Shown one piece after another: positions 2,888 to 37,254 of a stretch of DNA of 64,000 nt. Where the stretch lies: the IMG/VR virus record IMGVR_UViG_3300028800_000083. One strand, 5' to 3'. The stretch comes from a virus. Below the pieces are notes generated by a model. That model worked only from the letters and a program-made list of their open reading frames with translations, was not told where the DNA came from and ran no database searches. A program made the position numbers and the translations under genes. How positions within the stretch are numbered: the stretch's first letter is position 1; every line of letters starts with the position of its first letter.

Positions 2888-2908
2888 TACACACTACACG
2901 GTCAAGAA

Positions 2909-5821
2909 GTCTCGGTTGTTAACCAACCGAGCGGGTACGATCATAGGGTGTCCCTTAGAGCCTTAGACAGTGCAGTAGCTTCCTGTCTCAGCCGTCAACC
3001 GGCTGAGCAAGTGCGACCAAGGGCCTCGGGCCTCGGGCTTGTGCCCCTCGGGCCTCGGGCCTCGGGGGTCGGGGAGAATGCACGGACTCCCACTCGTCTC
3101 GGGCGTCGACCGACCGAGCAAGTCTTGCGGTTTGCGGTGTGCCGGTGTGCCGGTGTGCCGGTGTGCCGTGTGCCGTTGCTCAAGTCCCGGTCGTCAACCG
3201 GCCGAGTGACCGAGTCTCATGGCACTGCGCTGTAATCCCCTTGCTGTCTCGGTCGTCAACCGACCAAGCAGGTACTCTCGCTACATGCACATGCGCGCAC
3301 TGGCACTCACTGACGTCAACCGTCCGTCTGAGCGTCTGAGCTGCAACAAGCTCAAGGCTGGTCTCGGACGTCAACCGTCCGAGCAGGCGCGATCACTCCG
3401 AAGCTCCGTAGGCATAGCTGTCTCGGACGTCGGACGTCAACCGTTCGAGCAGGTGTCGATCATCCGCACGAGTGTCGAGTGTCGAGTGTCGAGCGCAAAC
3501 TCGGGATTCTCTGTCTCGGACGTCAACCGTCCGAGCAGGTGCGATCACCTACCAGGGTGAGAGATGGAAACAATCTCCGTCTCGGGCGTCAACCGTCCGA
3601 GCAGGTGCGATCACTCTCATAGATCACGTGCTCCAGCCTCCAGCCTCCAGCCTCCAGCCTCCAGCCTCCAGACGTCGGATCAGGCTCGTCTCGGACGTCA
3701 ACCGTCCGAGCAGGTGCGATCACCTGCCCCCCTGCCCCCCGCAGAGGCCGCAGAGGCGCAAGAACTCTCTCGCCAGTCTCGGACGTCAACCGTCCGAGCA
3801 GGTGCGATCACAGGCAGGTTCTCGCCTGGCTCCCGGCTCCCGGCTCCCGGCTCCACCTAACCAAGGTGTCTCGGACGTTAACCGTCCGAGCAGGTGCGAT
3901 CACCCGCTCGCTGAGCGTGAGCGTGAGCGGCCGATCGTAGCGGGTGTCTCGGACGTCAACCGTCCGAGCAGGTGCGATCACACGCGAGCATCGGGTGGCG
4001 CTGGCCCTCTCTAAACAATGCGTCTCGGACGTCAATCGTCCGAGCAGGTGCGATCATCTTCTGGACGCACGACGACAGATTCGGGATTCGGGTTGGCCCA
4101 GTCTCGGACGTTAACCGTCCGAGCCGCATCCCATGCGGCAGCGGCCCGATCCCTTGTCTCGGACGTCAACCGTCCGAGCAGGTGCGATCACCTCGCACGG
4201 GCGCGCGAGCCGTGAGGCCGTGAGCCGTCGATCGAGCTCAAGTCTCGGACGTCAACCGTCCGAGCAGGTGCGATCACTTGTGCGCGCGCATGCCGCGGGC
4301 GGCGGGCGGCGCGTGGTCTCGAACGTCAACCGTCCGAGCAGGTGCGATCACACGACGACGAATCAGCAGGCAAGGATAACTGCTGGTCTCGGACGTCAAC
4401 CGTCCGAGCAGGTGCGATCACAGGGGACGGACATCTTCGTGTTCGATCTTGGCACGCCTCGACCTCGAGCCACCTATAGTCTCGGACGTCAACCGTCCGA
4501 GCAGGTGCGATCACAAGCCACCCGCGACGCCTACGCGATGGAGCGTCGAGTCTCGGACGTCAACCGTCCGAGCGTCCGAGCAGGTGCGATCACACGCGCT
4601 GTACATCGGCCCCGGCGAGAAGTTCCGGTCTCGGACGTCAACCGTCCGAGCAGGTGCGATCACACGCGACCCGTGACCCGTTGCGCGAACGCGCGAACGG
4701 AACGGCCGGCTCCTCGTCTCGGACGTCAACCGTCCGAGCAGGTGCGATCACGCTCGGCGGCCAGCTGATCAGCACGCGCGATCGCTTGTCTCGGACGTCA
4801 ACCGTCCGAGCAGGTGCGATCACAATTGGCGATCAGTTGCGCGCGGCTGCGCGCTCGTCTCGGACGTCAACCATCCGAGCAGGTGCGATCACCCGCAGTT
4901 CGGGCAGGGAGCGTCCTCAAAGATCTGTCTGTCTCGGACGTCAACCGTCCGAGCAGATGCGATCACCTTCGACCGGTAGCGCGAGCGCTCGGGTACTTGT
5001 GGTCTCGGACGTCAACCGTCCGAGCAGGTGCGATCACGCGTCTCGACGGGGTAGCGCACCGAAATGGTCCGGGTCTCGGACGTCAACCGTCCGAGCAGGT
5101 GCGATCACGAGGTCAGCCGGTGTCCCAAATGCGGCGCCTTCGGGTCTCGGACGTCAACCGTCCGAGCAGGTGCGATCACTTGTGACGCATGTGCTCGCGG
5201 CTGGCAGCACTCAGTCTCGGACGTCAACCGTCCGAGCAGGTGCGATCACAGGATCACGCGCGTCGCCTCGTTAATCAGTCCGTCGTCTCGGACGTCAACC
5301 GTCCGAGCAGGTGCGATCATGCGAGAGCCGTGCCCGTCTGAATCACGATCTCCCAGCGTCTCGGACGTCAACCGTCCGAGCAGGTGCGATCACCGGCCGG
5401 GCGAAGCTTACCCGTTCAACTATCGAGTGTGGTCTCGGACGTCAACCGTCCGAGCAGGTGCGATCACAGGTGCCGCCTTTTGCTGCGTGTACAGGCGTTG
5501 GCTGTCTCGGACGTCAACCGTCCGAGCAGGTGCGATCACTCACCCATCGGACTGGCCAGTCCCTGGAGATCGGGTCTCGGACGTCAACCGTCCGAGCAGG
5601 TGCGATCACACGTCGTGACCGATCTAGCGATGACTAATCGGTTCGTCTCGGACGTCAACCGTCCGAGCAGGTGCGATCACCCTCGGCGCTGCGCGTAGCT
5701 GGTCTGCCCGTCTAGTCTCGGACGTCAACCGTCCGAGCAGGTGCGATCACTCGCAGCAGGCGATCCTCAAGCTGGCGCGGCCGATGTCTCGGACGTCAAC
5801 CGTCCGAGCAGGTGCGATCAC
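2909..5821 (-). CRISPR. CRISPR array A, ~40 units, 36-nt repeat GTCTCGGACGTCAACCGTCCGAGCAGGTGCGATCAC (plus-strand reading)
   Basis: Regular ~71-72-nt period with unique 34-36-nt spacers between 3361 and 5821. Repeats are degenerate and spacers irregular in 2909-3350, so that is the old end and the effector-proximal right end is the young end. The repeat contains the inverted repeat CTCGGACG/CGTCCGAG. On the minus strand the hairpin sits at the 3' end of the repeat next to the spacer, which is the type V-like arrangement. Strand is inferred. Confidence 0.9.
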
Positions 5822-5970
5822 CGGAGTTTCTTATTCAGTTGTCAAAGAAGGCACTTGCATCCTTCGATGCAGGCACCGGTAGCTTTACTCCACGCTCGTG
5901 CGTGTCGCGAGGGAGGACCCCTCTGAATGCTGCTGTACGGCCTGAGGTTTCGGGGGCGCATGAACCTCTT
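5822..5970 (-). promoter_or_regulatory. candidate leader or intergenic region between effector A 3' end and array A
   Basis: 149-bp stretch with lower GC (cggagtttcttattcagttgtcaaagaagg...) directly flanking the best-conserved terminal repeat. Contains the hairpin TGCATCcttcGATGCA at 5856-5871. Confidence 0.35.
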
Positions 5971-7908
5971 CTACGCGGCACGCCGCACCTGCGGCACCGG
6001 ACCGCTCGACAAGCCGTGCCTGTGGAGGAGGTTGCGCGCGGCGTTCGCGTCCTGGTCCCAGGTCCGAATGCACGACGAGCAGGTGTGCTCGATCGAGGCT
6101 GCCGCGTCGAACGCCTCGACCGAGCCGCACCACGCGCACGCCTTGGTCGAGTCCGCGGCCTGCTCGGCCTCGACGCGGGCGCCGCGTTTGGGGGCGGCCT
6201 TGAGGATCTCGGCGCGAAGCTCGCCGGGAGCTGCAAGGCGGCTCATGCGGCGCTGCTCGCGCCCGTCGGACGGGTCGCCGTCCTCCGGCGCGGGCTGCTC
6301 CCAGCCGTCGACCTCGGTGAGCTTCATCGAGGTGTCGTGGTTCGACCCGCTCTCGATCAGGATCGTCGCGTAGCGGGCGGTGAGCTCGGCGGCGATCACG
6401 CGCCACACCTCACGGCGGTGGGCGATCAAGCGATCGCGCTGGTGCTCCTCCCAGTTCTGGAGGTGTCGATCTTGGCGCGCCCACGCCTGGAGCACGGCGA
6501 GGATCGGACCGTCGCCGTCGATGCGGTTGGCCGTCGAGCCGAAGTCCGAAGGGTTGCACTTCTTGCCCTCGGCGCGAGCGACGCGCCAGGCGTCCCAGTC
6601 GATCCCAGTCCAAGCGTCGACGAGGGAGGCGAGCTTGCGGGGGGCGCGCCACTGCGCCAGGCTGCCGACGCGCTCGGCCATCCACGCGGGGGTCTCCCGG
6701 TCGAGCAGCCAGGCCGCGAGGCGGTCGCGCGCGGTCTCGAACTCCTTGTCGCGGATCGACGCCAGGTCGTGGACCTTGGCCATTCCCGTCAGCAGATCGT
6801 CGGGCACACGGATCTCGCGCTCGTGCCCGTGCTCGTCGACGAGGTAACCAACGCGCAGACCGACCTGCACGCCCTGGGCGTCGAACAGCCGCCGCCAGCC
6901 CAGGTCGATCGCGCAGGTCCCCTCGCCGATCGCCACCGGGCAGGCACGAAAGCGCTCGCTCTCGAGCGTGAGCTGGAACCTCCACTCGTAGTGACGGCCG
7001 ACGCGCTTGCGCACGACGTACGCCCACTTGATCACCGCGTCCTTCGGGATGGGTCGGTGGAGGGTGAGGGGGAAGCGCGCGAAGATCGGCTTCCGGTCAG
7101 GGTGGCTGCCGACGCGCAGGTCGACGTACGTCCGTGCCGCGTGACGGCGCAGGTTGCGCGGGAGGCACGCGGCCTCCTCCCACGTGGCGCACGCTCCGAC
7201 CTCGGCGCGCGGGTGCTTGTCGGCGAGACCAGGGGTCCCCAGCCGGAGCCGGGAGTCCTGCTGCGACAGCAGCTCGCTGACGGTCATGCCGTAGATTCCC
7301 GGGGCGCCGTCGCGCGCGATGAGCTGCGTGCCGATCGATCCGGTCCCGTCGTAGCGCTCGAAGTGGAGCGGGCGCTTCGCCGTCTTGACGGCCTGCTTGA
7401 CCGAGTTCTCGACGCGGTCGTAGGTGCCGGTGCGCAGTCCTCGCTCGATGAAGGCGCGGCGGGCCTCCTTGCGGCGCAGCGCCGTGAGCGCGCGCGCGGC
7501 CTCGTAGCCCGGCTGGAGCTGCGCCGCGCGAGACGCCTTGGCCTCGCGCAGCTCCGCGCCGCACAGGGCGCGGAGGTCCTTGGCGCGGGCGAGCACCTCG
7601 CGCTCCGCCGTCAGGTCCGGGGCAGCGACGCCGGACTTCGCGGCCCGCAGGTCGTCGTAGGCGTCGTCGACGGCACCCGCCGCGTCCTCGTAGTCGCGGA
7701 GGGCCGCACCGACGATCGGATCCGCGAGCTGGACGCCGCGGAGGTCGTCCCAGAGCTTGTGCTCGATCTCGACGAGCGTGTTGCGGTACTGGTGCGCGAG
7801 GCGGAACTGCTCTTCGACGCGGTTCACCTCGGTGATCGGAGGCAGGCAGCGGTACGAGTAGATCCGGGTCGGGACGTCGGAAGTCTTCTTCCTGGGCTGT
7901 CGCGGCAT
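5971..7908 (-). CDS. TnpB-like RuvC nuclease, putative type V CRISPR effector (Cas12-family, subtype unresolved), copy A
   Basis: ~646 aa from ATG at 7908; the longer in-frame ORF reaches 7980. TnpB-like N-terminus (PTRIYSYRCLPP). RuvC-I is AIDLGW, with the Asp codon GAC at 6904-6906. RuvC-II is ILIESG. Zinc finger CAWCG..(14)..CSSC is followed by RuvC-III DQDANAARNLL. A 40-unit array lies 150 bp downstream on the same strand. Confidence 0.75.
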   Translation of the reverse strand: MPRQPRKKTSDVPTRIYSYRCLPPITEVNRVEEQFRLAHQYRNTLVEIEHKLWDDLRGVQLADPIVGAALRDYEDAAGAVDDAYDDLRAAKSGVAAPDLTAEREVLARAKDLRALCGAELREAKASRAAQLQPGYEAARALTALRRKEARRAFIERGLRTGTYDRVENSVKQAVKTAKRPLHFERYDGTGSIGTQLIARDGAPGIYGMTVSELLSQQDSRLRLGTPGLADKHPRAEVGACATWEEAACLPRNLRRHAARTYVDLRVGSHPDRKPIFARFPLTLHRPIPKDAVIKWAYVVRKRVGRHYEWRFQLTLESERFRACPVAIGEGTCAIDLGWRRLFDAQGVQVGLRVGYLVDEHGHEREIRVPDDLLTGMAKVHDLASIRDKEFETARDRLAAWLLDRETPAWMAERVGSLAQWRAPRKLASLVDAWTGIDWDAWRVARAEGKKCNPSDFGSTANRIDGDGPILAVLQAWARQDRHLQNWEEHQRDRLIAHRREVWRVIAAELTARYATILIESGSNHDTSMKLTEVDGWEQPAPEDGDPSDGREQRRMSRLAAPGELRAEILKAAPKRGARVEAEQAADSTKACAWCGSVEAFDAAASIEHTCSSCIRTWDQDANAARNLLHRHGLSSGPVPQVRRAA

Positions 7909-7920
7909 CCGTGAATGGCT

Positions 7921-8011: not shown

Positions 8012-11000
8012 GTCGAGACCACTGCGAGGTCTCGCATCGATCGCGTGATCGCCTGTTGGTCGAGGTTTCACATCGATCGTGCCGCCTTGCCGTGCCAGGT
8101 GAGCAAGCGCTTGCACACGTCGAGACCACAGCGAGGTCTCGCATCGATCGCACCAACCTGAAATCGTCGGCGCCTTCATCCGGACGATTCGTCGGTCGGT
8201 TGAGACCACAGCGAGGTCTCGCGTCTCGCATCGATTGTGCCGAGAGTCGGCGCGGAGTTCTACGTTGACTTCTTCGGGTCGAGACCACCGCGAGGTCTCG
8301 CATCGATCAGGCCCGGCAATTTCATTGGCCGGAACTCCCAGTACCGGCTGGTCGAGACCACCGCAAGGTCTCGCATCGATCCCAGCCCAAATGTGAATCC
8401 GTCGAGACCACCGCGAGGTCTTGCATCGATCATCGATTGGGCCTCCCGCCCGCTCGCCAGCTCGCCGGGTTAGCAGTGGTCTCGACGAGCGGATCTACCG
8501 CGAGGTCTCGCATTGATCGTACCCCTTTTCCCTCGCCGTTTTCGCGGTCGTTGAGACCACTGCGCGCTGCGAGGTCTCGCAGCGATCGGGCCGAGCGGCC
8601 GAGCGGCCGAACGGAGCTGCCCCCAGCTCACGCGCTCGTAGGCTGATCGACCGGCTCGTCGAGACCGCCGCGAGGTCTCGCATCGATCGTGGCACTTCTT
8701 CGGGACCATACCCGTCACCTTGAGGAGAACTCGTCGAACCTCGTCGAGACCACCGTGGTCTCGCATCGATCGTGCCAATCGATTCGCGCAACGTCGATCG
8801 TGTCTGATTCGACGAGCTCGGGGCGAAGCGGTCGAGACCACAGCGAGGTCTCGCATCGATCATGCCTGTGGTGACGAAAAGGGCTGACAACGGTGACCTG
8901 TGGGTCGAGACCACAGCGAGGTCTCGCATCGATCGTGCGTCGGTGACTTGCTTCGATCGTGTCTTTGTCGGGGGCTTGCGCGAAACTTGGACCATGGGCA
9001 GTCGAGACCACAGCAAGGTCTCGCATCGATCACACCTGCGAACGGCGAGCTTCACAGTCAAGACGGCGCGCATTGATCTTGGCAGGCTTCAAGTTTCAAG
9101 TCCCTCGTGCGCCTTATCGTCCGTATCGTCGCGTTCTGGTCGAGACCATCGCGAGGTCTCGCATCGATTGCACCAGGGCTGCTCTGTGCCCTGGGGGCAT
9201 GCTCGGTGCTCGGCTGCTCGTCGAGACCCCTGCAAGGTCTCGCACTGACCGGAACTGATTCGCAACCACCTGTCGAGACCACCGCAAGGTCTCGCATCGA
9301 TTGTGCCGTTTGTACGTGAGGTTGATGAGGGGACGTCGAGAGTCGAGACCACCGCTCCTCATGGCAGCGTCGGGGTGGACCAACGACCAACGGTCGAGAC
9401 CACCGTGAGGTCTCGCATTGATCGTGCCCCCTTCTTGGGCCAGCAGGCGTCCTCCGTCAAGTGGTCGAGACCACAGCACAGCGAGGTCTCGCATCGATCG
9501 CGCCTCGATATCGCGCGGGCGCGCGGTGGTGGCTCAATGCTCAATGTTGTCGAGACCGTAGATGACCTGCGGCATTGCGGCACATTGAGCGTGGTCGAGA
9601 CCACAGCGAGGTCTCGCATCGATTGTGTCACTCGGCGATCTCGTTGTCCGTACCCCGTCGCCGCAGTCGAGACCACAGCGAGGTCTCGCATCGATTGTGC
9701 CCGACCTCGTGATTCGTGATTCGACGTGAGGATGGAGATCCCGGTGTCGAGATCTCGCGTCGATTGTGCCGTGGACGCCAAGTGGAGCGAGAGCCTTGGT
9801 AAAGCTGTCGAGACCACCGCGAGGTCTCGCATCGATCGTGCCAAGTAGGCTGCACATGAGTCGATGGCCGTTCGGCGTGTCGAGACCACCGCGAGGTCTC
9901 GCATCGATCGAGCTTGCGCACAGGTTTTCGAGACCACCGCGAGGTCTCGCATCGATCGTGCCGTGAAGACGTAGTCCCCGCGCGGCGGACTCGCATTGTC
10001 GAGACCACCGCGAGGTCTCGCATCGATTGTGCCCGTCAGCCTAAGCACCCTGTCGCGCTGGGAGTCGAGACCACCGCGAGGTCTCGCATCGATTGTGCCG
10101 CCTAGGCGCAGGCGTCTCACCTACGCAATCGCTAAGTAGAGACCACCGAGGTCTCGCATCGATCGTGCCGGGGGGCCGGGGATCGTCGACCGTCGGCCCA
10201 ACTGCGGACAGTCTAGGCGAGACCACAGCGAGGTCTCGCATCGATCGTGCCCAGCGCTTGCTCGCTTCCTCTTCGCGCGCCGATGACGACGTGTTGCGGC
10301 GGTAACAGGTAACAGGTGCGCACCGGGTGTTTGGGTCGAGACCACAGCGAGGTCTCACATCGATTGTGCCCCGGCTAAGCTGAAGAACCGTGACCCCAAA
10401 CTACGGCGAGTCGAGACCACAGCGAGGTCTCGCATTGATTGTGCCCCGTGACCAGGCTCGAGTACGTCAGCTTCAGCACCGTAGGGTCGAGACCACAGCA
10501 AGGTCTCGCATCGATTGTGCCAGCCTCAGGCTCCGCGTCCTGCTATTCCCGTTCGTCCAAGTCGAGACCAGCGCGGTCTCGCATCGATTGTGCCACGTGC
10601 CACGCGAGCCGCATCCCAGCCGTCAGGGTGTCGAGACCACCGCGAGGTCTCGCATCGATTGATTGTGACGCCGTGCAGCGCGCCAAGAATCGGGGCGATG
10701 CCAGTGTCGAGACCACCGAGGTCTCGCATCGATTGTGCCGTACCGCCGCGAGCGCGCCTTGACCGACGTAGAGCGTGTCGAGACCACCGCGAGGTCTCGC
10801 GTCTCGCATCGATTGTGCCGCGACACTCGCCGAAGTCGACCTCCGATCCCGACCCTGTCGAGACCACCGCGAGGTCTCGCATCGATTGTGCCTCCGCACC
10901 GTGCGCTGCGCGCTTCGGTGTCGTCTGGTCGAGACCACCGCGAGGTCTCGCATCGATTGTGCCTGCCGGCCTGCCGGCCTGCCGGCATCGCGCCGACGTC

Positions 11001-14000
11001 GTGGACGTGGGCACACCCGTCGTCGAGACCCCCGCGAGCACAGCACCGATCGTCAACTGGTCGAGACCACCGCGAGGTCTCGCATTGATTGTGACCGCTC
11101 GGGTCACCCACCATCTGCCGTGACACGATCTTGTCGAGACCACCGCGAGGTCTCGCATCGATTGTGCCGACGGACGCGGACGTCGTCGAGAAATGTCGGC
11201 CCTTGTCGAGACCACCGCGAGGTCTCGCATCGATCATCGATCGTGCCTTGCCACGACTACGCATGTGGCTCGGCGGGTCTGCGCGTGGGGCCACACCTCG
11301 GACTGGTCGAGACCACCGCGAGGTCTCGCATCGATCATGCCGTTACCTGCTAAGACGGTAAGCAGGGAGGTCGTCGAGACCACTGCGAGGTCTCGCAGCG
11401 ATCGTGCCCGTGAGGTCTCGCCCCTGCGACGTTGGGATCGGTCGTTGGTCGAGACTACCGCAAGGTCTCGCATCGATCGTGCCGCAACAGAATTCGTGAC
11501 GGCGCCGATACTCGGAGCGGTCGAGACCACCGCGAGGTCTCGCAGCGATCGTGCCCAGGCATCTATCAAGGCTACGCTTGCACGGGCGCTCGTCGAGACC
11601 ACCGCAAGGTCTCGCATCGATCGTGCCCTTTGCTGTCATGTGTCCTCTTCTTCCTTCTTCCTTGCAGGTTGTCGAGACCATCGCGAGGTCTCGCATCGAT
11701 CGTGCCGCGCGGTCGCGCCGTCGCGCGGGACGCGATGCTGTAGTCGAGACCACCGCGAGGTCTCGCATCGATCGTGCCGCTCGCGTAGCGAGGTGCCAAC
11801 GGCGTTCTTACGAGGTCGAGACCACCGCGAGGTCTCGCATCGATCGTGCCGCCCAGGAGCGTCAGAGTGTCGACCATTTCGCCGTGTCGAGACCACCGCG
11901 AGGTCTCGCATCGATCGTGCCGTTCAACCCGCACTCGGGCAAGCACAAGACGCTCGGTCGAGACCACCGCCGTGACGGATGAGCCTGTTGCTGTTGGGCA
12001 GGCCTACGTCGTATTGGTCGAGACCACCGCGAGGTCTCGCATCGATCGTGCCCTGGCTGTCCTTAAGACGAGGCCCCTATGGACCGAGAGTCGAGACCAC
12101 CGCGAGGTCTCGACCACATGGCTCCGGCTCTGGTCGAGACCACCGCGAGGTCTCGCATCGATCGTGCCGTCTCCACGTTCACGCCGCCCTCCCACGCGAG
12201 CCAGTCGAGACCACCGCGCGGTCTCGCATCGATCGTGCCGTGCCACGTGCCACGTGCCACAGCAGCAGCGAGCCCAGACTAGACAGTTCGTCGAGACCAC
12301 CGGGAGGTCTCGCATCGATCGTGCCAGTCGGTCGCTTGACCATGGCTAACCTCAAAAATGTGTCGAGACCACCGCGAGGTCTCGCATCGGTCGTGCCCTC
12401 GATACGGACCCGAGAAACGGAAACTGGTTTTTCAGTCGAGACCACCGCGAGGTCTCTCATCGATCGTGCCGGCCAAGTCTTCCTCGGTCGTCGAGCGCCC
12501 GCCGGCCTTGTCGAGACCGCCGCGAGGTCTCGCATCGATCGTCGATCGTGCCCTCTTGTAGACCCAGCCGTGTAGCCGATAGAGCTGCTTGTCGAGACCA
12601 CCGCGAGGTCTCGCATCGATCGTGCCGTCTCGTCGCTCGCCATGCTCGCCGGCACACCGAACCCGTCGAGACCACCGCGAGGTCTCGCATCGATCGTGCT
12701 CCCAGGCGAGCGAGTCGAGGTAGTCGCGGACCGGGTGGGTCGAGACCACCGCGAGGTCTCGCATCGATCGTGCCGCACGCGGGCGCGCGCTCGGTGTCGT
12801 TGACCGTTGACCGAGGAGGTCGAGACCACCGCGAGGTCTCGCATCGATCGTGCCGCCGTGCAATTGCGGACGGCCGATCTACTTCCGGTGGTCGAGACCA
12901 CCGCGAGGTCTCGCAATCGATCGTGCCGGTCGAGAGTGCGTGACCGAAAACACGGAACCGGAGGCTGGTCGAGACCACCACGAGGTCTCGCATCGATCGT
13001 GCCGTACAGGTTCGCCGTGGTGCCCTTGGGCGCACCGTAGTCGAGACTACCACGTCATAGCGGCCGTCGAGACCACCGCGAGGTCTCGCATTGATCGTGC
13101 CGCGACCTCGTCGAGGTGCCGCTCGTCGTTCATTCTTGTCGAGACCACCGCGAGGTCTCGCATCGATCGTGCCTTGCCTAGCCGCCGAGGCGTTCGGCGA
13201 CAAGACAGCGGGTCGAGACCACCGCGAGGTCTCGCATCGATCGTGCCGCGGCCGGGCAGGAGGGCAGGAAGTTGAACGTCGAGTCAACTTTGTCGAGACC
13301 ACCGCGAGGTCTCGCATCGATCGTGCCGAACGCCGAACACTGCTGAGCGGCAGGCGATACTCCTAGGGCAGTCGAGACCACCGCGAGGTCTCGCATCGTC
13401 GCATCGCTCGTGCCTGCAACGCGCGGTTCGCTCAGCGGGGGTTGGAGGTGGTCGAGACCACTGCGAGGTCTCGCATCGATCGTGCCCGCGACTCGTTCGT
13501 CGTTCGCCGCGTCGGCCGTAGTGCGCCGGGTCGAGACCACTGCGAGGTCTCGCATCGATCGTGCCACGCGCGCCAAGTCGGTCCAACTAAGAGCCCCAAT
13601 CGTTGTCGAGACCACCGCGAGGTCTCGCATCGATCGTGCCCAGCCGACCGAATTCGCCACTGCATTTACGACGCTGTGTCGAGACCACCGAGAGGTCTCG
13701 CATCGATCGTGCCGAACGCGGGCGCGTCGGGCTCGAGTTCGTTCCATTGGTCGAGACCACCGCGAGGTCTCGCATCGATCGTGCCGCGCGCATCGTGCGG
13801 CAAGCGTGCGGCAAGCGTGCGGCATGAGCTTGTCGAGACCGCCGCGAGGTCTCGCATCGATCGTGCCTTATCGTCGGACTTGCCGATCCCGAGCTGCCCT
13901 TTTGTCGAGATCACTAGGTCTCACATCGATCGTGCCGGTTATGGCGCCCTCGTTGTCGCAGTGCCCGTTCTCGTCGAGACCACCGCGAGGTCTCGCATCG

Positions 14001-15906
14001 ATCGTGCCGATCGTCGACGTGGAACGTGGAGGCGCGTTGGCGCAACCGGAAGTCGAGACCACCGCGAGGTCTCGCATCGATTGTGCCCGTCGCGCGCTCG
14101 CCCGATATCGATGAGCCCAACGTGTCGAGACCACCGCGAGGTCTCGCATCGATCGTGCCGGGAAGTAGGCTGCACATGAGTCGATGGCCGTTCTGCGTGT
14201 CGAGACCACCGCGAGGTCTCGCATCGATCGTGCCGTCTAACGTGGCTGCTCACCGGAGCCGTGGTTCGCTGTCGAGACCACAGCGAGGTCTCGCATCGAT
14301 CGTGCCTCGGGAATTCCAAGACCTCCGTCAGCGGTTCCTCTCGTCGAGACCACAGCGAGGTCTCGCATCGATCGTGCCGGTGTCAAACGTGCGATGGAAC
14401 AGGCGGAGGTTTAGGTCGAGACCACCGCGAGGTCTCGCATCGATCGTGCCTGAACACGTTCTTGCCGTTGGCGCCTTCGCCATAATGGTCGAGACCACCG
14501 CGAGGTCTCGCATCGATCGTGCCGTTGTGCAGACACTTTGCCGTAACGACGCCGGTGTCGTCGAGACCACCGCGAGGTCTCGCATCGATCGTGCCGAACG
14601 ACTCGAAGGTCGCGACATCGACGCATCTGTCGTCGAGACCACCGCGAGGTCTCGCATCGATCGTGCCCGCGTGCGAAGCAGAGATGCCCTCGAGCAGTCG
14701 CTCGTCGAGACCACCGCGAGGTCTCGCATCGATCGTGCCGCTGCGCGACCGCGACGAAGCTCGTCGTCCTCATAGATGCTCACGTCACGTCGAGACCACC
14801 GCGAGGTCTCGCATCGATCGTGCCACAGGAGTAGACACGGATCCACGGAGGAACCAATGGGTCGAGACCACAGCGAGGTCTCGCATCGACGACGTGATCG
14901 CCCGTTGGTCGAGACCACCGCGAGGTCTCGCATCGATCGTGCCAGGTCGGGCTGGACCTTGGCAGTCGAGACCGCTGCGAGGTCTCGCATCGATCGTGCC
15001 GAAAGCGGCCGGGTCGGGCGCGGGCGCGATCTGCGCGTCGAGACCCCCGTGAGGTCTCGCGTCTCGCATCGATCGTGCTGTTCAGGATCTCAGCCGCAGC
15101 GAGCGAGGTGTCTATGTCGAGATGTCGAGACCACCGCGAGGTCTCGCATCGATCGTGCCCAGCAACGAACCCGGGCTAGAGAGTTCGAACCCATGTCGAG
15201 AGTCGAGACCACCGCGAGGTCTCGCATCGATCGTGCCGATCGCCGCCGCGATTGAAGCAGCGCTCGTCTCTGGCGTCGAGACCACCGCGAGGTCTCGCAT
15301 CGATCGTGCCTGATCTGAGCGGCCTTGTCGATCGGCTCAAGGTCGAGACCACCGCGAGGTCTCGCATCGATCGTGCCGGCTCGGACGCATGACCAAGAGC
15401 GTTACGTTCGATGTGTCGAGACCACCGCGAGGTGCCATGACCTCACCATAGCGCGCCCGCGATCGTGCCGACGAACCCGAATTCCTCCGCCGAGGACAAT
15501 CCGTAGGTGTCGAGACCACCGCGAGGTCTCGCATCGATCGTGCCGGGGCTTGGGCTCGATCCGCGCTACACGATCTCGTCGTCGAGACCACCGCGAGGTC
15601 TCGCATCGATTGTGCCCGCCTGACGGTACGCCGCCGGGGCGGAGGGCTGCGTGTCGAGACCACCGCGAGGTCTCGCATCGATTGTGCCCTCGACCGTCTC
15701 GTGCCAGCCCTTCGGGATTCGCACGTCGAGACCACCGCGAGGTCTCGCATCGATTGTGCCCACTCTCGTGGTCTCGTGGCAATACCCACTCGACGTGCGT
15801 CGAGACCACCGCGAGGTCTCGCATCGATTGTGCCGCGCCGCTTGTCCGGTGGCGACCAGGACTTCAGGATGTCGAGACCACCGCGAGGTCTCGCATCGAT
15901 TGTGCC
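8012..15906 (-). CRISPR. CRISPR array B, ~108 units, 36-nt repeat GTCGAGACCACCGCGAGGTCTCGCATCGATCGTGCC (plus-strand reading)
   Basis: 72-74-nt period with unique 36-39-nt spacers. Repeats are degenerate in 8012-9100 (old end) and near-perfect toward 15906, which is the end next to effector B. Palindrome GAGACC/GGTCTC. Sub-variants ...GATCGTGCC and ...GATTGTGCC occur in blocks. A few truncated repeats are present, for example at 12090. Strand is inferred as for array A. Confidence 0.9.
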
Positions 15907-15927
15907 TTCGATTGTCAGAGAACGAAC

Positions 15928-16199
15928 CATGCTTATCCGGTTGTCACCCCTCGCGGGCGCGACGGATCTCCTTGATCTTTCGCTCGGCGCGCTTCGCAGA
16001 GGCTCGCCATTCAGCGAGAGCTTCCGTTGGGGTGAATTCTTGAATCGTTCCGCCGACGTTGATCACGGACGGTCGCTTGCCCAGAGAGGCGGAAAGAAGC
16101 TCGCCCATTTCGGAGCGGATGATTTTAAGTTCACGTTCGAGTCGCGATGCCATTTGATGTCTCCCTGATCACGTTTGGGGTGTTAACCGGATAAGCATG
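15928..16199. mobile_element. MITE-like insertion (272 bp) with 23-bp imperfect terminal inverted repeats and 8-bp target-site duplication GAACGAAC (15920-15927 and 16200-16207)
   Basis: Left end CATGCTTATCCGGTTGTCACCCC versus right end GGGGTGTTAACCGGATAAGCATG; 21 of 23 positions match as reverse complement. Identical direct repeats GAACGAAC flank both ends. The interior has lower GC. It sits between the last array B repeat (ends 15906) and the effector B stop (16212). Confidence 0.65.
15944..16153 (-). CDS. small ORF inside the MITE (69 aa, coiled-coil-like, lower GC)
   Basis: MASRLERELKIIRSEMGELLSASLGKRPSVINVGG... The only ORF of 60 aa or longer within the TIR-bounded element. Codon usage is atypical for the surrounding DNA. 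It may not be expressed. Confidence 0.3.
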   Translation of the reverse strand: MASRLERELKIIRSEMGELLSASLGKRPSVINVGGTIQEFTPTEALAEWRASAKRAERKIKEIRRAREG

Positions 16200-16211
16200 G
16201 AACGAACGATC

Positions 16212-18167
16212 CTACGGCGTTGCGGGGCTCGGCGCGAGCGGCTGCTGGTCCTTCCGCCGGTTCCGCCGCGCCGGGGCCTTCTTCTTCGTCGAAGGTGCCG
16301 GAACCTTGGGGTCGAGCGGCCACCCGCTCTCGCCGCGCGCGACGGCGCTCGCGGCGGCGAGCAGGTTTCGGCTCATCGTGATGTCCTGGTCCTCGGCGTG
16401 GCCGCAGTTCTCGCAGCGGATCACCCGCTGCACCCGGTCTTCCCGCGAGACGTCGCGGTGGTGACCGCAGGCCGCGCAGTCGAGCGTCCCACCGGCAGCG
16501 TCGACCTCCAGGTCGACGCTGCCGTACTTCTTCGCGAAGTAGCCGACGCGGGCGCGGGCGCGCCCGGGCCCCAGGATGTTCACGCGGCGCGCCGTCTTCT
16601 TGCGCAGCTTCTGCTCGTCCTCGTCGTGCTGGTCGTCCTTCTCGACGAGGCCGGTCACGTCGAAGTCGTCGCGGGCGACGACCCCGTAGCGCTTGGCCAG
16701 CTGGACCGCGACCGCGGTGACGCGGCCCTCGACCTGGCGCTGCATGCGCTCGAGGCTCGGCACCTCGCGGTGGAGCAGGTGGACGTCCTGCTTGCTCCAC
16801 GCCTCCAGCGCCGCGAAGGCCGGCTGGTCGCCGTGGATGCGCTGGTCTCGCCACTGCCGGTGCAGGCGGACGTACTTGCTGGGGGCCCGCCAGTTGTGCA
16901 TGTGGCGGCTCTCTTCGCGGAGCCACGACGTCGCCGGCAGCGACCGGGCGTAGGCGAGGATCATGTCGCGGAGCACGTCCTGGTTCTGGTCGCGGATCGA
17001 ATGGATCGAGTCGGCCCAGGGTTTCACACCGAGCACGTCCTCGGGGATCACGAGTTGCCCCCAGAGCGGGCTCGCGGGGTCGTTGGGGTCGAGTGGCGCG
17101 GTGGCGCTCCACGTGAGCAGGCGGATGCCCGCCTTCTTGCCCTCCTCGTCGAAGAGCTGACGCCAGCCGATGTGGACGGCGACCGCGTCGTGCGGGTGCG
17201 GGTGCGGGGTGGTCACGGCCACGGAGCCCTCGACCTCAAGCGTGAGGTACCAGCGGTAGCGGAGCCCGGTGCGCTCGCGCCGGACCACGGCCCACTTGAC
17301 GACGTCGTGCCCGAGCTGGAGGCGGTTCTTCGTGCGCGGGGACTGGTGCAGGAGCAGGTGCATCTGGGCCCAAATCGGGCGGATGGTGCCCGGCACAGTC
17401 CCGACGCGGATCGCGAGCGCGTGGAAGCGCTTGCCCTTCGTGGCGGCCTCTCCCGCGCGCGGCCCGATCTTGATGACGTCTCCCGGGTTCCCGGCGACGT
17501 CGATCGCGCGCCCCTCGGCGTCGACCGCGGCGGGTCGGAAGTGGTCGACCGGGGCACCCAGCGAGTACGCGACCGATCCGATGCGCAGCCAAGACCCTTC
17601 GCCGCCGATGAGATCGTCGGCGTAGACGGACTTCTTGGCGGGAAGTGTCTTGCCGGTCCGCGCGTCGATGCGCGCGTTCTGCCGCTGGAACTGGACGGCG
17701 ATGCGGCCCACGTCCGGGGGGAAGTCCGTCCCCACGAACGTGGTCCGGCCGTTTTCGTCGATGAGCCCTGCCTTGTCGATCGTGCGCCGCGCGAAGTCGG
17801 CCGCGTCGTCCGCCTTGCCGAGCGTCCCCCACATGGCTCCCGCCTCGATCGTCGCGTCGCGCACGGCCTTGAGCGCGCGCTTCTTCCCCGCGAACACGCG
17901 CTCGCGGAGGGCCTTGAACTCGTCAGAGGCGTGCCACGCATCGCGGGCAGCTTTCCCAGCCTCCGACTTCCACCACGCGCCACGCGCTTCGACGGGTACG
18001 TCCCTGGCCGGGTAGTCGATGAGCGCGCGCCGGAGGAAGCGCTCGCGGTTCTCGATGAGCGCGATCTGTCGGCGGTAGCGCGCGCCGAGGCGCACCTGCT
18101 CGCGCAAGCAATGGTCGTCGGCGGCCGTCGCCGGGAGACAGAGGAACTTGTACACGCGCATCGTCAT
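16212..18167 (-). CDS. TnpB-like RuvC-fold protein, putative type V CRISPR effector paralog B with divergent catalytic residues
   Basis: 651 aa; about 30-35% identical to copy A over its full length (RVYKFLCLPA N-terminus, WRAPSK, AWSKQD, KRYG blocks). RuvC-I reads AVHIGW, with His codon CAC at 17172-17174 where copy A has Asp. RuvC-II reads VVARDD. Zinc finger CAACG..CENCG is followed by EDQDITMSRNLL. A 108-unit array lies downstream on the same strand. Confidence 0.75.
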   Translation of the reverse strand: MTMRVYKFLCLPATAADDHCLREQVRLGARYRRQIALIENRERFLRRALIDYPARDVPVEARGAWWKSEAGKAARDAWHASDEFKALRERVFAGKKRALKAVRDATIEAGAMWGTLGKADDAADFARRTIDKAGLIDENGRTTFVGTDFPPDVGRIAVQFQRQNARIDARTGKTLPAKKSVYADDLIGGEGSWLRIGSVAYSLGAPVDHFRPAAVDAEGRAIDVAGNPGDVIKIGPRAGEAATKGKRFHALAIRVGTVPGTIRPIWAQMHLLLHQSPRTKNRLQLGHDVVKWAVVRRERTGLRYRWYLTLEVEGSVAVTTPHPHPHDAVAVHIGWRQLFDEEGKKAGIRLLTWSATAPLDPNDPASPLWGQLVIPEDVLGVKPWADSIHSIRDQNQDVLRDMILAYARSLPATSWLREESRHMHNWRAPSKYVRLHRQWRDQRIHGDQPAFAALEAWSKQDVHLLHREVPSLERMQRQVEGRVTAVAVQLAKRYGVVARDDFDVTGLVEKDDQHDEDEQKLRKKTARRVNILGPGRARARVGYFAKKYGSVDLEVDAAGGTLDCAACGHHRDVSREDRVQRVIRCENCGHAEDQDITMSRNLLAAASAVARGESGWPLDPKVPAPSTKKKAPARRNRRKDQQPLAPSPATP

Positions 18168-18195
18168 TGTTGGGCGCCCCGCTGTCGCACGTGCT

Positions 18196-18238
18196 GTTGT
18201 TGCATTGACGAACAGCTAACAGGATGATAGACGTTTTG
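18196..18238. promoter_or_regulatory. conserved motif copy 2 (TTGCATTGACGAACAGCTAACAGGATGATAGACGTTTTGCAAG) between divergent effector B and RHH-like gene
   Basis: Nearly identical to the copy at 22302-22339. Quasi-palindromic ends (TTGCA..ACG / CGT..TGCAA). Possible -35/-10 readings in both directions: TTGACG-N17-TAGACG on plus and TTGCAA-N17-TAGCTG on minus. Confidence 0.5.
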
Positions 18239-23699: not shown

Positions 23700-24005
23700 G
23701 GTCCTCGGTAGATAAGGCGCGGCTTGGTTGGGCATGGCGAGGTAAGGCCTGGCGAGGTAAGGCTGGCATGGGGCAGGGCGAGGCCCGGCTTGGCGGGGCA
23801 GGGCTCGGCACGGTTGGGCGAGGCGTGGCAGGCAAGGCGTGGCCGGGTAAGGTCTGGTTAGGCAAGGCAAGACAGGGCTTGGCAGGCGTGTCAAGGCTAG
23901 GCAAGGCTCGGCTCGGCTCGGCTCGGCTCGGCTGGGCACGGCAGGCACGGTGCGGCGCGGCAAGGTTCGGCACGGCAGGCGCGGTTCGGCGCGGTTCGGC
24001 GCGGC
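23700..24005. repeat. ~300-bp G-rich tract with 5-nt periodicity (GGNNN)n, including perfect (GGCTC)x4
   Basis: ggcga ggtaa ggcct ggcga ggtaa ... ggctc ggctc ggctc ggctc ... ggttc ggcgc ggttc ggcgc. All six frames are open. Lies immediately upstream of the sigma-factor ORF. Confidence 0.7.
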
Positions 24006-36922: not shown

Positions 36923-37254
36923 CTTCCGCCGGGAACGTCGAGTGCGACCTCACGCCCCATCGCACGGTAGTGAAGACGGCGTTCGTCGATGTTGTCTTGC
37001 ACGTCCGGCGTGGGCGTCTCCTCGGCGTCGTCGAACTCGCCGCCGTTGTCCGAGATCGTGTAGCGCTCCTCGTCGTCCTCGTCCTCGTCCTCGTCGTCCT
37101 CGTCGTCGTCCTCGTCGTCGTCCTCGTCGTCGTCCTCGTCGTCGTCTTCGTCGTTGTCCGCATGCACCGAAACCGAGATCGTCACTGGCTGCTTCGCGGC
37201 GAGCGCGGCAGCGATCTCACGATCGAGTTGGGCGGCGGTCTTCTTACGCTTCAC
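36919..37254 (-). CDS. highly acidic protein (DE-rich run) with N-terminal MKRKKTAAQLDREIAAALAA motif; DNA-mimic candidate
   Basis: 111 aa; contains DNDEDDDEDDDEDDDEDDDEDDEDEDEDDEE. Confidence 0.5.
   Translation of the reverse strand: MKRKKTAAQLDREIAAALAAKQPVTISVSVHADNDEDDDEDDDEDDDEDDDEDDEDEDEDDEERYTISDNGGEFDDAEETPTPDVQDNIDERRLHYRAMGREVALDVPGGR

What the first reader, a model, noticed from the sequence alone, without database searches (positions are those of the whole stretch)
16212..18167. Effector B has substitutions at RuvC catalytic positions (D to H in RuvC-I, E to D in RuvC-II, altered RuvC-III neighbourhood)
Aligning the paralogs places the two RuvC-I motifs against each other: copy A reads TCAIDLGWRRLFD and copy B reads AVAVHIGWRQLFD. 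The codon GAC at 6904-6906 in copy A is Asp, while the corresponding codon CAC at 17172-17174 in copy B is His. RuvC-II reads YATILIESG in A and YGVVARDDF in B, so Glu is replaced by Asp. RuvC-III reads DQDANAARNL in A and DQDITMSRNL in B. Copy A keeps the canonical D-E-D triad and copy B does not. Yet copy B owns the larger and evidently active array (~108 spacers, duplicate acquisitions). That suggests an RNA-guided protein with attenuated or altered nuclease activity working next to a cleavage-competent paralog, for example binding-based silencing or another non-cleaving role.
Basis: partly seen in the sequence, partly recalled or inferred. Interest (0 to 1): 0.7.

Follow-up and report, generated by a model that had tools for sequence, protein, structure and literature searches.

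The report
Cas12m effector with known H-D-D site
The second CRISPR effector in this window is a Cas12m protein whose His-Asp-Asp "nuclease" site is the published hallmark of Cas12m enzymes that silence DNA by binding it rather than cutting it, so the substitutions are real but already explained; the only new point is that this lineage seems to have acquired the same site independently.

Summary
Copy B (16212-18167, minus strand, 651 aa) has His332, Asp500 and Asp595 where copy A has Asp, Glu and Asp.

This is not a new kind of effector. Both proteins are type V-M (Cas12m, formerly V-U1) effectors by sequence, and copy B also by predicted fold. B's three residues fall in the same alignment columns as H317/D485/D579 of MmCas12m2 and H322/D497/D590 of GoCas12m. 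That H-D-D site has solved structures: it binds one Mg2+, clamps the non-target strand and does not cleave.

The idea that copy A is a cleavage-competent partner is not supported. Every D-E-D Cas12m tested so far also binds without cutting, and crRNA processing in this family does not need RuvC.

What is new is modest:
- The B lineage nests among D-E-D relatives. Its sister P0008 (51% identical) is D-E-D, while Mm/Go are about 25% identical. The H-D-D site therefore seems to have arisen independently, at least three times in the family.
- A D-E-D system and an H-D-D system, with arrays of about 33 and about 100 repeats, sit together on a large phage-like element. No adaptation genes were found in the window.

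Verdict: new member of a known kind, low to moderate interest.

The parts
16212..18167 (-). cas12m-B gene (651 aa), a type V-M effector with an H-D-D RuvC site
   Evidence: ORF with GC3 0.93. HMMER to solved Cas12m 23vw_A E 1.3e-25. PADLOC Cas12u1 E 1.5e-38. AlphaFold model pLDDT 85.9; best Foldseek hits Cas12m2 8hhl_A E 2e-26 and GoCas12m 8pm4_A E 1e-23.
17172..17174 (-). His332 codon (CAC) at the RuvC-I catalytic position
   Evidence: Codon read. Same alignment column as Mm H317 and Go H322. Invariant in 7 orthologs; Asp (GAT) in sister P0008.
16668..16670 (-). Asp500 codon (GAC) at the RuvC-II catalytic position (Glu in D-E-D types)
   Evidence: Codon read. Same column as Mm D485 and Go D497. 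Glu (GAG) in P0008.
16383..16385 (-). Asp595 codon (GAC) at the RuvC-III catalytic position, in the context DQDITMSRNL
   Evidence: Context DQDxTMSRNL is invariant in the B clade, against DQDxNAARNL in D-E-D types.
16404..16478 (-). TNB zinc ribbon of copy B (C564, C567, C585, C588)
   Evidence: Pfam PF07282 Cas12f1-like_TNB, E 6.7e-08, residues 536-601. The cysteines are invariant in the B clade, and three of them are nearly invariant family-wide.
15907..16211 (-). Spacer region between the cas12m-B stop and the first repeat (putative leader). It contains a 69-aa ORF (15944-16153) flanked by a perfect 16-nt inverted repeat (16185-16200 / 15927-15942).
   Evidence: Sequence read. The ORF is called as a gene in L016. 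No Pfam or PHROG family.
8012..15906 (-). CRISPR array B: about 93-101 copies of the 36-nt repeat GGCACGATCGATGCGAGACCTCGCGGTGGTCTCGAC (gene-sense), downstream of cas12m-B
   Evidence: A 7-bp stem-loop followed by AC precedes the spacer. Repeat decay rises with distance from gene B.
5971..7908 (-). cas12m-A gene (645 aa from Met25; the ORF extends to 7980), a type V-M effector with a canonical D-E-D triad
   Evidence: PDB 23vw_A E 1.2e-64 and Cas12m2 8hhl_A E 9e-26. PADLOC Cas12u1 E 8.8e-89.
2909..5821 (-). CRISPR array A: about 33 copies of GTGATCGCACCTGCTCGGACGGTTGACGTCCGAGAC (gene-sense), downstream of cas12m-A. It is regular near the gene; below about 3360 only degenerate remnants remain.
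   Evidence: Stem-loop MFE -16.1 kcal/mol, z -2.5. The related array in L005 keeps the stem through a compensatory change.

Best explanation
Copy B is the effector of a type V-M (Cas12m) CRISPR system of the H-D-D active-site class.

Proposed mechanism:
1. Its pre-crRNA is transcribed from the roughly 100-repeat array downstream on the same (minus) strand.
2. The pre-crRNA is cut into guides carrying a 5' repeat handle (tail, 7-bp stem-loop, then AC). In Cas12m this processing does not use the RuvC site.
3. The ribonucleoprotein finds PAM-flanked double-stranded DNA, forms an R-loop and stays bound.
4. The His-Asp-Asp site holds only one Mg2+ and grips the displaced non-target strand instead of hydrolysing it.
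5. Interference therefore comes from blocking transcription and/or replication of the target, not from cutting it.

Copy A, next door, is a second, probably orthogonal Cas12m system with its own repeat. It most likely works the same way despite its intact D-E-D triad.

Basis of each part:
- Shown here: family membership, fold, residue equivalence, conservation, array architecture and array polarity.
- Taken from published work on Mm, Go, Ms and Pm Cas12m: one-metal binding, no cleavage, and RuvC-independent processing.
- Inferred by analogy: that copy B itself behaves this way.
For: Family and fold:
- HMMER to solved Cas12m, E 1.3e-25.
- PADLOC best model Cas12u1.
- AlphaFold model pLDDT 85.9 / pTM 0.78. 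Its top four PDB matches are the Cas12m2 and GoCas12m complexes (E 2e-26 to 1e-23, TM up to 0.75); the next family, Cas12f, scores 2e-10.

Active site:
- H332/D500/D595 share alignment columns with the structurally defined H317/D485/D579 (Mm) and H322/D497/D590 (Go).
- They are invariant in 7 orthologs at 68-83% identity.

crRNA module:
- The repeat is 36 nt with a 3' stem-loop followed by GAC. This is the same layout as the native GoCas12m repeat I read from its genome (L010) and as the arrays of B's relatives.
- Decay polarity and shared variants in the gene-proximal repeats show the array grew from the gene-proximal end.

No cas1, cas2 or cas4 was found among the ORFs scanned in the window, as is typical of V-M (PMC10691335).

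Literature:
- The HDD site coordinates a single Mg2+, binds the non-target strand and does not cleave. D485A lowers binding and silencing. HDD-to-DED does not restore cleavage (PMC10442227).
- DED, HDD and NDD orthologs all bind without cutting and protect against plasmids and phages. Processing is unaffected by RuvC mutation (PMC11013384; bioRxiv 10.64898/2026.03.26.714355).

Family-wide lability of the triad fits a family in which RuvC catalysis is not what selection maintains: at least 19 changes at RuvC-I among 215 representatives.
Against: - Copy B is not in the clade whose biochemistry was measured. It is only about 25% identical to MmCas12m2 and was not detected by phmmer against it at E<=1.
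- The Arg residues of the Cas12m2 REC pocket (R111, R112, R126) do not align to Arg in B (gap, K, V). That region is poorly alignable, so the tight-binding apparatus may differ.
- The zinc site is CCCC rather than HCCC.
- No protospacer was found for any spacer, so neither a PAM nor a target class is known.
- There are no expression or activity data.
- His can be a competent ligand for other metals, so a residual or altered nuclease activity cannot be excluded from sequence alone.
Confidence: 0.8

Rival explanations
1. Copy B keeps a nuclease activity of altered type (nicking, ssDNA or RNA cleavage, or cleavage with a different metal such as Mn2+ or Zn2+ bound by His). The His/Asp changes would then retune catalysis rather than abolish it.
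For: - The triad is strictly conserved rather than decayed.
- B keeps the R600-N601 part of the RuvC-III context that D-E-D types have and the Mm/Go clade has lost, so its site is less remodelled than theirs.
- Altae-Tran et al. note that conserved catalytic-site rearrangements in TnpB/Cas12 can retain activity (PMC10691335).
Against: - The two H-D-D enzymes tested (Mm, Go) show no DNA or RNA cleavage and no collateral activity.
- Only one Mg2+ is seen in the structure (PMC10442227, PMC11013384).
- Even D-E-D Cas12m orthologs do not cut.
Confidence: 0.08
2. Copy B is a decaying, non-functional effector, and its array is a relic.
For: - Many repeats in array B are degenerate; only 29 of about 95 are perfect.
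- Several spacers are fused, truncated or made of microsatellites.
- The arrays are identical in every other contig of the strain, so no turnover is seen.
- No targets were found.
Against: - The ORF is intact, with strong coding signature (GC3 0.93).
- 68-83% identical orthologs keep H, D, D, the zinc cysteines and hundreds of other invariant positions.
- The relative on a 333-kb contig also keeps an array with at least 48 repeat copies.
- The same exact triad arose in other lineages, which argues for selection.
- The gene-proximal repeats are clean.
Confidence: 0.04
3. B is used by the large mobile element as a programmable repressor of host or rival-element genes (offence or regulation) rather than as classical immunity. 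The mechanism is the same; the biological role differs.
For: - The surrounding genes look like a huge phage-like element, not a chromosome.
- Binding-based silencing is reversible and non-lethal, which suits control of a host.
- Two V-M systems are retained together in a related 333-kb contig.
Against: - Spacer matches within the window are at chance level.
- No spacer matches were found in the related loci, in IMG/VR or in one metagenome scan.
- About 100 diverse spacers with leader-proximal polarity look like immune memory.
Confidence: 0.08

Closest known systems
Cas12m2 / MmCas12m (Mycolicibacterium mucogenicum; PDB 8HHL, 8HHM, 8HIO) and GoCas12m (Gordonia otitidis; PDB 8PM4): the H-D-D clade of type V-M
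   Same: - Identical residues at the three RuvC positions.
- Same overall fold; these are the top Foldseek hits.
- Similar size (about 600-650 aa).
- Single-crRNA system with a 36-nt repeat ending in a stem-loop plus GAC.
- No adaptation genes found here, as is typical of V-M.
   Different: - Only about 25% identity.
- It never groups with that clade: 0 of 200 bootstraps.
- About 15 D-E-D-dominated groups lie between them on the tree.
- The RuvC-III context is TMSRN, not SATxLM.
- CCCC rather than HCCC zinc site; REC Arg pocket not conserved.
- Carried on a large phage-like element, not an actinobacterial genome or plasmid.
- The array is about ten times longer than Go's six repeats.
D-E-D-type Cas12m (e.g. 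MsCas12m of Allomeiothermus silvanus; solved 23vw_A 'CRISPR-associated DNA-binding protein Cas12m')
   Same: - These are the closest sequence relatives of both copies. B to 23vw_A: E 1e-25. A to 23vw_A: E 1e-64.
- The best plasmid hit for B is the A. silvanus plasmid.
- B's sister P0008 and its next ~40%-identical neighbours are nearly all D-E-D.
   Different: B has His and Asp at RuvC-I and RuvC-II, and M598/S599 in place of the conserved Ala-Ala after RuvC-III.
PmCas12m (N-D-D Cas12m; bioRxiv 10.64898/2026.03.26.714355)
   Same: A naturally nuclease-dead V-M effector with the non-target strand lodged in an altered RuvC site. It makes a crRNA of about 50 nt with a guide of about 17 nt.
   Different: It has Asn rather than His at RuvC-I and belongs to a different lineage.
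Cas12k (V-K), Cas12c and TldR: other naturally non-cleaving TnpB/Cas12 derivatives
   Same: RNA-guided DNA binding without target cleavage.
   Different: - Cas12k works with Tn7-like transposition genes and very short arrays. No such genes turned up among the ORFs scanned.
- Cas12c is twice the size and keeps an active RuvC for crRNA processing.
- TldRs lack CRISPR arrays.
- None of these is among B's best sequence or fold matches.

Membership tests
Type V-M CRISPR-Cas (Cas12m, formerly V-U1) | Effector is a sequence homolog of Cas12m | tested here: met
   - B: 23vw_A E 1.3e-25; PADLOC Cas12u1 E 1.5e-38.
- A: 23vw_A E 1.2e-64, Cas12m2 8hhl_A E 9e-26; PADLOC Cas12u1 E 8.8e-89.
Type V-M CRISPR-Cas (Cas12m, formerly V-U1) | Compact protein (about 600 aa) with the Cas12m fold: WED, coiled-coil REC, and RuvC with an inserted TNB zinc ribbon | tested here: met
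   - 651 aa.
- AlphaFold model pLDDT 85.9, with long N-terminal helices 15-133, a beta-rich WED, RuvC and a zinc ribbon.
- Top PDB matches are 8hhl, 8hhm, 8hio and 8pm4, with TM 0.58-0.75.
- Pfam TNB domain.
Type V-M CRISPR-Cas (Cas12m, formerly V-U1) | Adjacent CRISPR array whose repeat supplies a 5' handle with a stem-loop next to the spacer; single crRNA, no tracrRNA | tested here: inconclusive
   - Array and repeat layout: met. The 36-nt repeat has a stem-loop followed by AC, the same layout as the native Go repeat.
- Absence of a tracrRNA and the actual crRNA ends cannot be shown without RNA data.
- Rfam found nothing in the window.
Type V-M CRISPR-Cas (Cas12m, formerly V-U1) | No adaptation module (cas1, cas2, cas4) in the locus | tested here: met
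   - No such family among 30 of the larger ORFs of the window scanned with Pfam and/or PHROGs.
- None in the precomputed Pfam tables of neighbouring contigs.
- The rest of the 150-460 kb element was not seen.
Type V-M CRISPR-Cas (Cas12m, formerly V-U1) | PAM-dependent dsDNA binding without cleavage; interference by silencing | not testable with these tools
   Known only from experiments on Mm, Go, Ms and Pm orthologs (PMC10442227, PMC11013384, 10.64898/2026.03.26.714355).
Cas12m clade 2 (the 'Cas12m2' H-D-D clade of Wu et al. 2022, containing Mm and Go) | H-D-D residues at the RuvC triad | tested here: met
   H332/D500/D595 are in the columns of Mm H317/D485/D579 and Go H322/D497/D590.
Cas12m clade 2 (the 'Cas12m2' H-D-D clade of Wu et al. 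2022, containing Mm and Go) | Common descent with MmCas12m2 and GoCas12m (monophyly) | tested here: not met
   - NJ tree of 215 taxa and 476 columns. B-HDD plus D-E-D P0008 form a clan in 99.5% of 200 bootstraps. The Mm/Go group forms a clan in 100%. B-HDD plus Mm/Go forms a clan in 0%.
- About 15 D-E-D groups lie between them.
- Identity: B-P0008 54%, B-A 30%, B-Mm 25%.
- Caveat: this is a distance tree only; no ML or Bayesian check was run.
Type V-K (Cas12k, CAST) | Inactive Cas12 linked to tnsB, tnsC and tniQ, with a very short array | tested here: not met
   - No Tn7-like families among the ORFs scanned in the window.
- The arrays have about 33 and about 100 repeats.
- Cas12k is not among the sequence or fold hits.

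The most novel reading that the evidence does not exclude
The H-D-D site may be a repeatedly selected end state, not the quirk of one Cas12m clade.
- The B lineage acquired exactly His + Asp + Asp from a D-E-D ancestor independently of the Mm/Go clade.
- A third lineage, P0209, did so too.
- The B lineage is young enough that its D-E-D sister (P0008, 51% identical, with its own array) survives as a natural 'before' state.
- This H-D-D system is retained side by side with a D-E-D Cas12m system on a family of 150-460 kb phage-like elements, with an array of about 100 repeats that is unusually long for V-M. That hints at a division of labour between the two site types.
Probability: 0.6. Interest if true: 0.45.

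Novelty: new member of a known kind. Interest (0 to 1): 0.3.

Why it matters
For the finding as stated, it matters little. A His-Asp-Asp RuvC site in a compact Cas12 next to a CRISPR array is the textbook signature of Cas12m2. Its mechanism (one Mg2+, a non-target-strand clamp, silencing without cutting) is already solved structurally.

Three things are of some use to specialists:
1. There is evidence that the same three-residue solution arose at least three times within Cas12m. That argues the H-D-D site is positively useful for tight DNA binding, not mere decay.
2. The closely related pair of D-E-D P0008 and the H-D-D B clade could be swapped residue by residue to measure what the switch buys.
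3. A new, divergent H-D-D binder (about 25% identical to Mm and Go, possibly with a different PAM) and a D-E-D partner with orthogonal repeats are potential compact tools for CRISPRi or base editing.

Tried and rejected
- Plus-strand ORFs. The long plus-strand ORFs overlapping both genes (5812-7914, 16197-18227) translate to low-complexity Arg/Ala-rich sequence. They are shadows of the real minus-strand genes.
- Close relatives of B in curated collections. None were found in IMG/VR, in one genome per GTDB species, in INPHARED phages or in PLSDB plasmids. Only distant TnpB hits and the A. silvanus Cas12m appeared.
- Spacer targets:
  - blastn-short of 112 spacers against the array-masked window and related loci gave only 16-19-nt matches.
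  - A shuffle control shows this is at chance level (2 spacers with a 16-mer hit against 0.6 expected; 12% of controls reach that).
  - Three spacers scanned in IMG/VR gave nothing.
  - The duplicated spacer scanned in JGI metagenomes hit only other copies of the same array.
  - No PAM could therefore be derived.
- Spacer turnover. Seven other contigs of the same strain carry identical spacers, including the five newest ones. I could not show ongoing acquisition.
- The 69-aa ORF in the leader. I suspected a phage gpW-like protein, but no Pfam or PHROG family supports this. Rejected.
- Phage hallmarks. PHROG and Pfam scans of 30 window ORFs found helicase, DnaJ, SPFH, RNA ligase, phosphoesterases, radical SAM and a glycosyltransferase, but no capsid, portal or terminase. 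There are no tRNAs and no Rfam hits. The element type stays unproven.
- Recombination as the source of the H-D-D residues. Around both positions B resembles its D-E-D sister, not Mm (AVAVHIGWRQLFD against RVAVDLGWRQLFD against TVALHLGWRSTEE). Each switch is a single-nucleotide change (GAT/GAC to CAC; GAG to GAC/GAT). Rejected.
- Wu et al. 2022 (Mol Cell) is not in the held library. Its clade definitions are quoted second-hand from PMC10442227.
- The model's coordinates are not exposed, so I could not measure distances between H332, D500 and D595.
Full report
**What is at the coordinates**

The window holds two paralogous genes on the minus strand, each followed on the same strand by its own CRISPR array.
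- Copy B is 16212-18167 (651 aa). It is followed by array B at 15906-8012.
- Copy A is 5971-7908 (645 aa from Met25; the ORF runs to 7980). It is followed by array A, from 5821 down to about 3360, with degenerate remnants to about 2909.
- The long plus-strand ORFs over the same DNA are low-complexity shadows.
- The GC3 values of 0.91-0.93 mark the minus-strand frames as the real ones.

**Checking the observation**

- Copy A has D359 (GAC, 6904-6906), E543 and D644 in 669-aa numbering.
- Copy B has H332 (CAC, 17172-17174), D500 (GAC, 16668-16670) and D595 (GAC, 16383-16385).

The two proteins align end to end at 25% identity (E 9e-30), with these residues opposite each other.

Equivalence to true catalytic positions rests on three further lines:
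- HMMER aligns B to the solved Cas12m 23vw_A with H332 on Asp, D500 on Glu and D595 on Asp.
- In a 359-sequence alignment the three B residues fall in exactly the columns of H317/D485/D579 of MmCas12m2 and H322/D497/D590 of GoCas12m. Those are the residues that the cryo-EM papers identify as the RuvC site (PMC10442227, PMC11013384).
- In the AlphaFold model of B (pLDDT 85.9, pTM 0.78), the residues sit in strand 328-339, at the end of strand 496-501, and at the start of helix 594-610. That is the RNase-H-fold pattern.

It fails. The only nearby Asp (D327) is equally present in a D-E-D relative.

**What the proteins are**

Both are type V-M effectors (Cas12m, formerly V-U1).
- PADLOC's best model for B is Cas12u1, at 1.5e-38. 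A scores 8.8e-89 on it, essentially tied with a Cas12f model at 3e-89.
- Copy A hits solved Cas12m structures strongly: 23vw_A at 1e-64, Cas12m2 8hhl at 9e-26 and UnCas12m4a at 8e-21.
- Copy B is more divergent in sequence, hitting only 23vw_A at 1e-25.
- B's predicted structure nevertheless finds the Cas12m2 and GoCas12m complexes as its four best PDB matches (E 2e-26 to 1e-23, TM up to 0.75). Cas12f follows sixteen orders of magnitude behind.

The RNA side fits too. In gene-sense orientation both repeats are 36 nt, built as a 13-nt tail, a 7-8-bp stem-loop and then AC immediately before the spacer.
- The native GoCas12m repeat, which I read from its genome, has the same layout: GTGTCAACGCCAGCGCGGAGGCGTCAAATCCGCGAC (L010).
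- So do the arrays next to B's relatives P0005 and P0008.
- So does the array next to A's relative P0028, which keeps the stem through a compensatory A-T to T-A change.

No cas1, cas2 or cas4 was found among 30 window ORFs scanned, or in the Pfam tables of neighbouring contigs. That is the norm for V-M (PMC10691335, PMC11013384).

**Why the substitutions are already explained**

H-D-D is the published signature of Cas12m clade 2.
- In Cas12m2 the His and the third Asp hold a single Mg2+ (site A). The shorter Asp cannot reach site B, so no hydrolysis occurs.
- The site instead grips the displaced non-target strand.
- D485A weakens binding and silencing.
- Restoring D-E-D does not restore cleavage (PMC10442227).

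GoCas12m (H-D-D) protects E. coli from plasmids and phages purely by binding (PMC11013384).

Two parts of the interpretation do not hold.
- Copy A is not shown to be cleavage-competent. It is also a Cas12m. All four D-E-D orthologs tested, as well as the N-D-D ones, bound but did not cut dsDNA, and showed no collateral activity (PMC11013384; 10.64898/2026.03.26.714355).
- There is no paradox in a RuvC-altered protein owning a large array. Cas12m processes its pre-crRNA independently of RuvC (D485A in Mm and D274A in Ms have no effect), and interference needs no cleavage.

**Is the H-D-D state maintained?**

Yes. The word-indexed search found seven orthologs at 68-83% identity and one at 51%.
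- In the seven, H332, D500, D595, the four zinc cysteines and the altered RuvC-III context DQDxTMSRNL are invariant.
- D-E-D types have DQDxNAARNL in that context.

**The one point that goes beyond the literature I could read**

The 51% relative, P0008, has Asp (GAT) and Glu (GAG) at the first two positions. It is a canonical D-E-D protein with its own array.

An exhaustive profile search of 1.84 billion representatives found 2,804 family members. It showed the B clade to be isolated: after P0005 and P0008 the score drops from 1,084 to 370 bits. The next neighbours, at about 40% identity, are nearly all D-E-D.

I then pulled the Mm/Go clade with a third homolog search. It returned 125 proteins, nearly all H-D-D, including GoCas12m itself.

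Triads in the 359-sequence alignment:

| Group | Triads |
|---|---|
| B group | 7 H-D-D, 1 D-E-D |
| A group | 77 D-E-D, 19 N-G-D, 5 N-E-D |
| Other hits from the B profile | 107 D-E-D, 1 H-D-D (P0209), the rest assorted |
| Mm/Go group | 100 H-D-D |

Bootstrap support in a neighbour-joining tree of 215 non-redundant sequences over 476 columns:

| Grouping | Bootstraps (of 200) |
|---|---|
| B-HDD clade plus P0008 | 99.5% |
| Mm/Go group | 100% |
| B-HDD clade plus Mm/Go group | 0% |

- Walking across the tree from B to Mm passes about 15 successive D-E-D-dominated groups, including copy A's.
- Trimmed identities are 54% for B-P0008, 30% for B-A and 25% for B-Mm.
- Locally, B resembles P0008 around both switched residues, and each switch is a single-base change. 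A recombination tract from the Mm clade is therefore unlikely.
- A third H-D-D protein, P0209, sits among D-E-D neighbours at 45-48% identity and is 29-33% identical to the other two H-D-D groups.
- Fitch parsimony on the tree needs at least 3 gains of His, about 10 changes to or from Asn, and 19 changes in all at RuvC-I.

So the H-D-D triad in copy B most likely arose independently of the characterised clade. The triad is generally labile in this family. [quoted passage not shown] Caveat: mine is a distance tree. A likelihood analysis with a topology test is still needed.

**The arrays**

Array B has 93-101 recognisable repeats. That is long for V-M, which typically has short arrays (PMC10691335).
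- Repeat decay rises steadily away from gene B, from a mean of 0.71 mismatches in the 14-16 kb bin to 3.33 in the 8-10 kb bin.
- The five gene-proximal repeats share one variant.
- This is the classic footprint of growth from a leader next to the gene.
- One near-duplicate spacer pair exists.

I could not show current activity or find targets.
- Seven other contigs of the same strain carry identical spacers, including the newest ones.
- No protospacer was found in the window, in related loci, in IMG/VR or in one metagenome scan. Short self-matches are at chance level.
- No PAM or target class can be given.

**Context**

The genes around the locus are tightly packed, co-directional and mostly without family assignment. 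Those with assignments include a helicase, DnaJ, an SPFH protein, an RNA ligase, phosphoesterases, a radical-SAM protein and a glycosyltransferase.
- Contigs carrying identical or related genes are 150-460 kb. They show the same texture, plus Mom-like, Cpn10, UvrD and further RNA-ligase genes.
- A 333-kb relative carries both an A-type system (P0028, 62% identical) and a B-type system (P0005, 70% identical), each with a long array, about 31 kb apart. The D-E-D plus H-D-D pairing is therefore conserved.
- The B clade is absent from GTDB genomes, IMG/VR, INPHARED and PLSDB.
- This looks like a huge phage or other giant extrachromosomal element. I saw no capsid, portal or terminase gene, so that remains a guess.

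**Verdict**

The feature is a new, divergent and probably independently evolved member of the known H-D-D class of Cas12m DNA-binding effectors. It sits beside a D-E-D Cas12m that is probably also a non-cutter. Interest is low to moderate.

Noticed in passing
window 2900-3990 (distal array A); also 10961-10986 and 13794-13824 in array B: Many old 'spacers' are made of short tandem repeats of 7-11 nt. Examples are CTGGAGG x6, GGAGCCG x4, GGCACACC x5, CCCGAGG x5, GCCTGCCG x3 and an 11-mer x2.8. These replace ordinary unique sequence between otherwise recognisable repeats. Possible causes are slippage in old spacers or acquisition from microsatellite-bearing targets. Unexplained.
   Followed up: partly
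window 15927-16200 (minus strand), between the cas12m-B stop and the first repeat: A 69-aa ORF (15944-16153) with a good Shine-Dalgarno sequence and lower GC (59%) lies in the putative leader. It is bracketed by a perfect 16-nt inverted repeat (CCATGCTTATCCGGTT / AACCGGATAAGCATGG). It is called as a gene in another sample (L016) but is absent from the P0005 locus, where the array starts 26 nt after the stop codon. No Pfam or PHROG family. It could be a small inserted cassette or a regulator.
   Followed up: partly
window 8012-15906: Repeat degeneracy in array B increases with distance from gene B: mean mismatches 0.71, 1.20, 2.65 and 3.33 in four successive 2-kb bins. The five gene-proximal repeats share the ...ATTGTGCC variant. 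This fits leader-proximal growth on the minus strand.
   Followed up: yes
L001 and L005 (JGI contig Ga0214473_10000008, 332,853 bp): A related giant contig carries both a B-type H-D-D Cas12m (P0005, 70% identical, array with at least 48 repeat copies) and an A-type Cas12m (P0028, 62% identical, array of about 40 or more repeats), about 31 kb apart. The dual V-M arrangement is therefore conserved even though adjacency is not.
   Followed up: partly
whole window; L006, L014, L015, L017, L018: The surrounding DNA looks like a huge phage or other giant mobile element. It has long runs of small, overlapping, co-directional ORFans, with DnaJ, Cpn10, Mom-like, SPFH, UvrD/DEAD helicase, RNA ligase, radical-SAM and phosphoesterase genes. 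Contigs are 150-460 kb. There are no tRNAs or Rfam hits in the window, it is not in IMG/VR, and no capsid or terminase gene was seen.
   Followed up: partly
protein alignment of 359 Cas12m-like sequences: Copy A's own clade contains 19 N-G-D and 5 N-E-D members. Across 215 representatives, RuvC-I changed at least 19 times and RuvC-II at least 24 times. Loss of the canonical triad is therefore recurrent throughout Cas12m, and P0209 is a probable third independent H-D-D origin.
   Followed up: partly
window 23730-24011 and 37066-37159: There are tandem repeats with 5-41-nt units (GGCTC/GGCAAGG-type units at 23.7-24.0 kb; TCGTCC/CTCGTCGTCGTC at 37.1 kb) in or next to coding regions of the element. 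They are not related to the CRISPR repeats. Not examined further.
   Followed up: no
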